From: Eledone cirrhosa
Taxonomy: Eukaryota
DNA: 64,000 nt
Direction: 5' to 3'
Assembly (NCBI GenBank): GCA_964016885.1
Contig: OZ024742.1
Location: forward strand, 249,612,001 to 249,676,000
Made by a program: the position numbers and the translations under genes. Below the pieces are notes generated by a model. It was not told the origin of the DNA. It did not search any database and saw nothing but the letters and a program-made list of their open reading frames with translations. Shown one piece after another: positions 50,197-50,308 of this stretch; positions within the stretch are counted from its first letter, which is position 1, and each line of letters opens with the position of its first letter.

Positions 50197-50198
<2 letters not shown>

Positions 50199-50308
50199 AA
50201 CCGGTAAGACCCCGACGGCTGAGCTCAAGCCGTTTCGACGGCTAATTCTGGACTAAATGAAAATTTATCCTGGTATTTAAATAGCCGATCTTCTCAAGAG
50301 GTAATTCC
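50197..50308 (-). ncRNA. Extended type I hammerhead with U3-A8 core at the PLE 3' end
   Basis: Minus strand: ggaatt-acctc TTGAGAA ga(t)cggcta...tagccgtc GAAA cggct tgagctc agccg TC^ ggggt...ggttcc; all three stems pair; GUC triplet. Confidence 0.8.

What the first reader, a model, noticed from the sequence alone, without database searches (positions are those of the whole stretch)
50197..50308. Penelope terminal hammerhead with rare U3-A8 catalytic core and fully formed stems
Seen: the minus strand gives acctc-UUGAGAA-ga(u)cggcua...uagccguc-GAAA-cggcu-ugagcuc-agccg-UC^ggggu, with an extended stem I (ggaauu/gguucc). The core is UUGAGAA rather than CUGANGA. Established: C3-G8 is a tertiary Watson-Crick pair, and the U3-A8 swap keeps activity but is rare in nature and missed by CUGANGA searches. 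Here it is physically linked to a YRDD-type RT-GIY-YIG ORF. Unlike the minimal PLE ribozymes it has a true 6-bp stem III, with a palindromic loop (UGAGCUCA), and a long stem II.
Basis: partly seen in the sequence, partly recalled or inferred. Interest (0 to 1): 0.75.

Follow-up and report, generated by a model that had tools for sequence, protein, structure and literature searches.

The report
Penelope hammerhead with cleavage footprints
This is a hammerhead-shaped RNA motif at the end of a very abundant jumping gene; its swapped U-A core pair is already in print, but many short genomic copies of the element begin exactly at its predicted cut site, which likely records self-cutting in the living animal.

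Summary
U3-A8 is the family state (2,177 of 2,233 copies; C3-G8 in 0). It is not new: U3-A8 is published for Schistosoma PLE hammerheads. The 6-bp stem III and 37-nt loop II exceed all published Hydra hammerheads I saw. The copies are more informative. 54 of 93 tail-anchored copies start in loop II, often with an extra G, likely a capped transcription start that splits the ribozyme. About 920 copy arms start exactly at the cut site, against about 105 three bases upstream. That excess is higher in the window's family than in a subfamily partly carrying a mismatched C3·A8 core. One copy has an A-run at the scissile bond. Yet 1,689 of 7,395 core copies carry C3·A8, so fast cutting is probably not needed to transpose. 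No RNA data; cleavage is untested. This scan already noted the U3-A8 core, cut footprints, split start and mismatch on other DNA of this genome.

The parts
50209..50302 (-). Type I hammerhead: stem I 5 bp, core UUGAGAA, stem II 8 bp with one bulge, 37-nt loop II, GAAA, stem III 6 bp with 7-nt loop, GUC cleavage triplet
   Evidence: sequence; fold
50291..50297 (-). Core U3 U4 G5 A6 G7 A8 A9 (U3 = 50297, A8 = 50292)
   Evidence: 2,177 of 2,233 family copies
50213..50214 (-). Predicted scissile bond C17|G1.1; an excess of copy arms begins here
50245..50281 (-). Loop II, 37 nt, with a weak predicted inner hairpin; holds the main 5' boundary of short copies
50250..50256 (-). TTAGTCC: likely transcription start, +1 at A 50254 (inferred from copy ends and an extra G); resemblance to an initiator is recalled, not tested
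50215..50233 (-). Stem III and loop with the GAGCUC palindrome; predicted to favour a two-copy duplex (-30.7 against 2 x -7.1 kcal/mol)
   Evidence: palindrome kept in most A- and T-type copies, changed in a few
50197..50308 (-). Predicted stem I extension GGAAUU/GGUUCC around a 6-nt bulge; only GGAA/UUCC recurs in sister subfamilies
50194..50197 (-). Near 3' end of the element, 17-20 nt past the cut site, joined to (TA)n
50194..52821 (-). 5'-truncated copy of the 3,543-bp element (94.9% to an intact tandem unit)
51414..52664 (-). ORF remnant, 416 aa: RT (YRDD) to GIY-YIG-type endonuclease; 97% to the intact 719-aa protein
52819..52868 (+). Inverted 50-nt piece of the tail, ending at the far 3' end (about 80 nt past the near end), joined to (TA)n
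1924..2123 (.). Short two-armed copy; both arms stop in loop II
18639..18783 (-). Short copy: tail plus 3' half of the hammerhead, stops in loop II
39816..40023 (.). Short two-armed copy; arms stop in loop II
60504..60732 (.). Short two-armed copy of the window's own type; arms stop in loop II

Best explanation
The motif is a type I hammerhead with a U3-A8 core at the 3' repeat of a truncated Hydra-type Penelope-like retrotransposon, and it likely cuts a share of read-through transcripts, while the element's own transcript likely starts inside loop II and so lacks the core at its 5' end. Shown: the fold-compatible sequence, the 3,543-bp unit with a 719-aa ORF 274 nt after U3, two fixed 3' ends about 80 nt apart past the cut site, (TA)n targets, and the copy-end counts. 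Inferred: the RT starts at those two tail sites on one RNA and copies into both ends of a (TA)n break. On the 5' tail of a capped RNA it runs off at loop II (most short copies, extra G from the cap). On an RNA cut by the ribozyme it runs off at G1.1 (extra A/T). On the 3' tail of an uncut RNA it reads through the whole ribozyme and gives long copies like the window's. Cutting would therefore trim or release RNA units and is not a required step of insertion.
For: Family state U3-A8 in 2,177 of 2,233, C3-G8 in 0. In sister subfamilies N7 takes all four bases while U4, G5, A6, A8, A9 differ in only 4 of 100 listed. Two fixed 3' ends into (TA)n, matching the two internal RT start sites of PMC11167929. 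54 of 93 tail-anchored copies end from -14 to +6 around the G at 50253, only 1 ends further up in the ribozyme, and 9 pass the core; summed contig depth falls about 20-fold across this point. Base before a loop II A start: G 23, A 9, C 6 of 38; base before a cut-site start: G 7 of 61 (Fisher p=4e-7, or 3e-6 on my hand-picked 21 unambiguous joints); a 5' untemplated G is linked to cap copying in PMC9341517. Cut-site pattern 1,567 raw, 59 of 100 listed not G-run or deletion artefacts, about 920; control three bases upstream 150 raw, 21 of 30 real, about 105. In 17 of 51 such insertions both arms end at the cut, 9 joined by one A/T. By tail type, hand-counted from the two listings: U3-A8 tails 40 vs 32, C3·A8-enriched tail 11 vs 46 (p=3e-4 counting insertions), with the same stems I and III in both. 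L287 is a complete copy with a 30-nt A-rich run exactly at the scissile bond.
Against: No RNA evidence: no RNA run was listed and nothing was assayed. One control position only; the listings are the first 100 by coordinate, not random. The tail I use for C3·A8 is mixed (4 C3 and 3 U3 arms in the 30 unselected loci), and the older U3-A8 tail type shows little excess (3 vs 18), so the pair alone does not explain the pattern. In the 93-copy sample the cut site held only 7 ends within 3 nt, one of them a deletion: weak by itself. G-runs and palindromes can attract joints. U3-A8 did not rescue in PMC9901934. PMC11167929 found no RNA-seq reads ending at the cut of its PLE and needed protein for cleavage. 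L287 is one case, found by a pattern that selects such joints. No known loop I-loop II tertiary contact was identified. An alternative hairpin that hides GAAA has 13-21% weight in the window, L002 and L109 and 80-85% in a C3·A8 copy, so misfolding rather than the pair could lower cutting there.
Confidence: 0.65

Rival explanations
1. The RNA does not cut. The fold is kept as a protein-binding or RT-positioning structure, and ends at G1.1 come from RT pausing at the junction, G-run microhomology or later trimming of palindromes.
For: 1,689 of 7,395 core copies carry C3·A8 and sit in clusters with short branches; U3-A8 inactive in one construct; hammerhead mutants do not affect insertion in vitro; weak excess in the older U3-A8 tail type.
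Against: Excess differs between subfamilies with the same stems I and III; 34 of 51 cut-site insertions are not symmetric joints and several abut (TA)n directly; A-run at the scissile bond; only N7 varies freely in the core apart from position 3.
Confidence: 0.17
2. It cuts, but only as a dimer through the GAGCUC loop or with help from the element's protein, like other animal PLE hammerheads; the full stem III does not make it monomer-active.
For: Two-copy duplex predicted far more stable than two hairpins; palindrome kept while the sixth stem III pair is lost in the T type; published dimer and protein dependence; tandem arrays exist. Compatible with the best explanation.
Against: The monomer already folds into the junction; a fungal PLE hammerhead with a large helix III is active as a monomer.
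Confidence: 0.3
3. Cut-to-cut monomers are circularised and the circle is the required template of long and tandem copies (model of PMC4209133).
For: Five tandem units at 99.8% identity; long copies run across the cut site; L287 shows the two cut ends joined with an A-run between.
Against: Subfamilies with a mismatched core made about 1,700 copies that span the core; uncut RNA is the main substrate in vitro; read-through RNA also explains tandems.
Confidence: 0.12
4. The loop II boundary is a 3' splice site (pyrimidine run then AG) or an RT stall at the loop II hairpin, not a transcription start.
For: The sequence reads as a pyrimidine run ending in AG; PLEs carry 5' introns and in D. virilis the intron end touches the hammerhead.
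Against: Modal starts are at the A and G of that AG, not after it; no shared upstream exon appears in the joints; an extra G precedes the A; the stronger stems downstream are read through.
Confidence: 0.1

Closest known systems
U3-A8 minimal hammerheads of Cercyon PLEs, Schistosoma mansoni (Cervera and De la Pena 2014, PMC4209133; parts 1-2 of 4 read; supplements not read)
   Same: Type I hammerhead in PLE terminal repeats, U3-A8 core, long helix II, short helix I, thousands of dispersed copies
   Different: Here a 6-bp stem III with a 7-nt loop, a 37-nt loop II, no extra base between A9 and G10.1, and a different clade
Hydra clade of C-terminal EN+ PLEs (Craig et al. 2021, bioRxiv 10.1101/2021.04.23.441226 passages and section 11; PMC8557442 supplement search and part 2 of 59)
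   Same: DKT, CxCX5C linker, no CCHH, C-terminal GIY-YIG-type EN, (TA)n targets, sense hammerhead at the 3' end
   Different: Unit 3.5 kb against mostly under 3 kb; all 26 published Hydra hammerhead rows have CUGANGA, stem III 3-4 bp and loop II up to 10 nt; four probes from this family found nothing in the held supplement, which was cut when stored
Poseidon element PAc of Anolis (Frangieh et al. 2024, PMC11167929; parts 1-2 of 4 read)
   Same: Two internal RT start sites downstream of the hammerhead that define the tail; uncut RNA used for insertion
   Different: PAc has C3-G8, its ORF starts inside the ribozyme, and no RNA ends were seen at its cut; here genomic copies pile up at the cut
Fungal and protist PLE hammerheads with large helix III (PMC4209133)
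   Same: Full stem III, predicted or shown monomer fold
   Different: Endonuclease-less telomeric elements; core pair not reported as swapped in the parts read

Membership tests
Hammerhead ribozyme, type I | Core Y3 U4 G5 A6 N7 R8 A9, G12 A13 A14, A15.1-U16.1, H17 with a 3-8 Watson-Crick pair | tested here: met
Hammerhead ribozyme, type I | Three helices, II and III closed, I open; G10.1-C11.1 | tested here: met
   (predicted fold)
Hammerhead ribozyme, type I | Compensatory changes in the helices | tested here: inconclusive
   Stems II and III nearly invariant across subfamilies; changes at 10.2 and the sixth stem III pair break pairs; no covariation statistic run
Hammerhead ribozyme, type I | Rfam hammerhead model match | tested here: not met
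   None among 91 matches at E<=1; canonical hammerhead motifs in the same stretch were missed too, so this is weak
Hammerhead ribozyme, type I | Self-cleavage after C17 | not testable with these tools
   Indirect only: copy ends and one A-run at the bond
Hammerhead ribozyme, type I | Tertiary contact between stems I and II | not tested
   No known contact identified by eye
Minimal PLE hammerhead (PMC4209133) | No or rudimentary helix III; extra base between A9 and 10.1 | tested here: not met
   6-bp stem III; G10.1 follows A9
Hydra clade PLE | DKG changed to DKT | tested here: met
   Residue 117 of the intact protein; DKT or DKS in 118 of 120 homologues
Hydra clade PLE | CxCX5C linker | tested here: met
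   Residues 572-580 in the intact copy; Tyr for the first Cys in the window copy
Hydra clade PLE | No CCHH in the C-terminal EN; no N-terminal CxC | tested here: met
   No CxxC between IY (592) and YIG (606); only CxC is the linker
Hydra clade PLE | No insertion-in-fingers domain | tested here: inconclusive
   RT3 to RT4 spacing 63 aa; no labelled reference to compare
Hydra clade PLE | Insertion into (TA)n; hammerhead in the terminal repeat | tested here: met
Hydra clade PLE | RT phylogeny inside Hydra | not tested
   No named Hydra reference proteins were available as tool sequences (one search hits mostly unnamed)
Naiad/Chlamys PLE | N-terminal endonuclease | tested here: not met
   EN lies after RT
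Non-LTR retrozyme | Short non-coding tandem unit | tested here: not met
   Unit is 3,543 bp with a 719-aa ORF

The most novel reading that the evidence does not exclude
The short copies are a fossil 5' RACE of a Penelope RNA: they record a capped start that bisects the ribozyme and a self-cut end, the cut signal follows the state of the 3-8 pair across subfamilies, and the lineage broke that pair (C3·A8) and restored it (U3-A8) while still making thousands of copies. PLE hammerheads would then cut in vivo, with tailing of the 5' product, but be dispensable for transposition.
Probability: 0.4. Interest if true: 0.72.

Novelty: new variant of a known kind. Interest (0 to 1): 0.5.

Why it matters
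What PLE hammerheads do is open: PMC4209133 proposes processing and circles, the Craig 2021 preprint calls the function unclear, and PMC11167929 found no RNA ends at the cut and no need for it in vitro. This family offers natural, matched variants (U3-A8 against C3·A8, same stems I and III) and a genome-wide record of template ends, so the question can be tested with a few short RNAs and one count. The U3-A8 core by itself is ordinary. I did not find the copy-end footprints in print (listings of searches; the papers read in part), but this scan noted them earlier on other DNA of this genome.

Tried and rejected
Rfam: no hammerhead hit, only microRNA-like matches on TA repeats. Pfam: no family for the 416-aa remnant. 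(C3-G8 count) used the window's rare stem I variant and was uninformative; redone. No RNA holder listed; the four runs are contigs of unknown kind from one study and may be the genome's own data, so searches are used only as a map of copy ends. First tree dropped 65 of 116 rows by an over-strict filter and 18 more by subsampling; the second kept 52 of 96 rows (18 failed the upstream filter, 26 window-family rows subsampled away, four truncated rows remain as long branches), has a midpoint root and no outgroup, so the order U-C-U is not tested. A designed switch from the shared CGGCU/AGCCG of stems II and III: the alternative hairpin is minor in the window (0.13-0.16) and no co-variation exists to support selection; left open. 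The stem I extension is not supported by compensatory change. Naiad, retrozyme and minimal-hammerhead readings fail their tests. Przybilski and Hammann 2007, the main study of 3-8 exchanges, is not held; I saw only its title, so the rate of C3·A8 rests on PMC9901934 passages and recall. Searches were seen as listings only. Supplements of PMC4209133 and PMC11167929 were not read and could hold similar folds.

Full report
Observation. The lowest-energy fold is the three-way junction, with pair probabilities 0.68-0.90 for the core piece; with 60 nt of upstream context the inner stem I pair drops to 0.38 in the window copy but stays 0.98 in a family-type copy, because the window has a rare C-to-T in stem I. 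Energy z-scores are near zero and Rfam found no hammerhead. A strict descriptor hits once in the window and never in 100 resamples.

The element. The window lies in a 3.0-Gb genome; earlier notes call it cephalopod, which I did not check. A five-unit tandem array gives the full unit: 3,543 bp, units 99.8% alike, one 719-aa ORF starting 274 nt after U3. [quoted passage not shown] These are the marks of the Hydra clade (Craig 2021, section 11); I did not build an RT tree with named references. The window insertion is (TA)n, an inverted 50-nt tail piece (52819-52868), a 5'-truncated body (52821-50194), then (TA)n. It has an in-frame stop and is dead.

The core across copies. With exact flanks, 2,233 copies belong to the window's family, 2,177 have U3-A8 and none C3-G8. 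Sister subfamilies add 5,162 copies; of the first 100 listed, 64 have UUGANAA, 32 have CUGANAA, 4 are otherwise changed and none has G8 (hand count). C3·A8 totals 1,689 of 7,395. On a tree of 52 of 96 rows with position 3 masked, the label needs 5 changes (at least 4 forced; shuffled mean 16), and with a midpoint root the C3·A8 rows form a grade between older U3-A8 types and the window's family. The clusters have short branches, so active elements carried the mismatch. The order of events is inferred and depends on the root.

What is known. U3-A8 in PLE hammerheads was reported in 2014, about 1,300 hits in Schistosoma (PMC4209133, parts 1-2); natural U3-A8 is also in PMC3088659 (passages), which cites earlier in vitro activity. 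In a full double-mutant scan only the G-C swap rescued this pair (PMC9901934, passages). Large helix III occurs in fungal and protist PLEs. All 26 Hydra rows in Craig's File S2 have CUGANGA, stem III of 3-4 bp and loop II up to 10 nt, so this fold is a new variant within Hydra. In 929 kb of window and fetched loci, many other hammerhead families with long stems appear, two with U3-A8. I also saw passages of PMC6155905, PMC3884650, PMC2377424, PMC13282606 and part 1 plus passages of the 2026 retrozyme preprint.

Where copies end. Contigs laid on the unit show two fixed 3' ends joined to (TA)n, 80 nt apart, both past the cut site, as the two internal RT start sites of PMC11167929 predict. Exact patterns give 31,355 tail matches and 16,830 matches to the 3' half of one ribozyme type, far more than complete cores. 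Of 93 tail-anchored copies from the first 23 Mb of C1, 54 end in loop II, 13 in stem II 3' strand to stem III, 7 within 3 nt of the cut, 9 downstream, 1 further up in the ribozyme, and 9 pass the core. The modal starts are the A (50254) and G of AGUCC. Where a copy starts at that A with an untemplated neighbour, the neighbour is G in 23 of 38 (14 of 21 after I removed joints that the partner arm explains); at the cut site it is G in 7 of 61. An extra G is the known mark of cap copying (PMC9341517 passage), and Penelope has an internal promoter. I read loop II as the capped start; this is inference.

Footprints of cutting. A pattern for arms that begin at G1.1 with three non-matching bases upstream gave 1,567; 41 of 100 listed were set aside (38 with an extra G after TC, 3 G-run or deletion variants), leaving about 920. 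The same design three bases upstream gave 150, of which 21 of 30 fetched were real, about 105. I fetched all 59 kept arms. They form 51 insertions; in 17 both arms end at the cut, 9 of them joined by one A or T. By tail type the listings give, cut versus control: window family 31 vs 28, a second U3-A8 type 9 vs 4, the C3·A8-enriched type 11 vs 46, the older U3-A8 type 3 vs 18 (hand counts; first two against third p=3e-4 by insertions). Against a simple reading: the third tail is mixed (4 C3, 3 U3 in unselected loci), the older U3-A8 type shows little excess, the C3·A8 copy tested is predicted to misfold, and there is one control position. One complete copy has a 30-nt A-rich run exactly at the scissile bond, as if a tailed 5' product was joined to the 3' product; it is a single, selected case.

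Mechanism. Shown: anatomy, counts, end positions. Inferred: transcription starts in loop II, so the ribozyme is whole only at the 3' repeat or in read-through RNA; it cuts part of those RNAs; the RT starts at two tail sites and copies into both ends of a (TA)n break, running off at the cap, at the cut, or passing an uncut ribozyme to make long copies. Cutting is then optional for insertion, in line with PMC11167929 and with the C3·A8 expansions. Rivals are no cutting (0.17), dimer- or protein-dependent cutting (0.3, compatible; duplex -30.7 against 2 x -7.1 kcal/mol), obligate circles (0.12), and a splice site or stall at loop II (0.1).

Earlier notes. I reached the core counts, the loop II start and the cut excess before the look-up that showed this scan had noted them on other DNA of this genome (e1-9529586, e1-9570153, e1-10317036, e1-9541062). 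They are repeats by agents like me and add no support. I saw only their summary lines, so I cannot say whether the G versus A/T contrast, the subfamily comparison or the A-run copy are new to the scan. A sequence look-up found nothing.

Verdict. A real hammerhead motif of a known kind, new variant within Hydra. The value lies in the copy-end record and the matched natural variants. Interest 0.5.

Noticed in passing
L287:230-285 (G000:C1 near 157,491,040): Complete family copy with a 30-nt A-rich run exactly between C17 and G1.1; the only such case in the fetched loci.
   Followed up: partly
window 53400-55230 (-): A second, frameshifted PLE of another clade (CxxC inside its GIY-YIG domain, Pfam GIY-YIG and RVT_1 hits) with a short canonical CUGAAGA hammerhead near 53465.
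   Followed up: partly
window 55413 (+), 57293 (+), 58334 (-), 18021 (+), 17789 (-), about 53080 (+): Further hammerhead motifs with canonical CUGANGA cores; the 55413 type recurs in L182, L229, L244 with a long loop II.
   Followed up: no
L017:186 and 781; L161, L240: Two other U3-A8 hammerhead families: one repeated 595 nt apart, one with an 8-bp stem III and 9-bp stem I.
   Followed up: no
window 41787-45800 and 1-1750: Tandem arrays of a 461-472-bp unit, the two in opposite orientation, 95-99% alike.
   Followed up: no
L032-L033, 5' end of the tandem array: A segment of about 54 bp of the ORF repeated at least five times head to tail, possibly RT slippage.
   Followed up: no
window 40021-40088; L017, L126: A more diverged subfamily with a changed loop III and tail; no complete copy was fetched.
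   Followed up: no
window 20000-32000: G+C-rich stretch (44-54%) in a 25-42% background.
   Followed up: no
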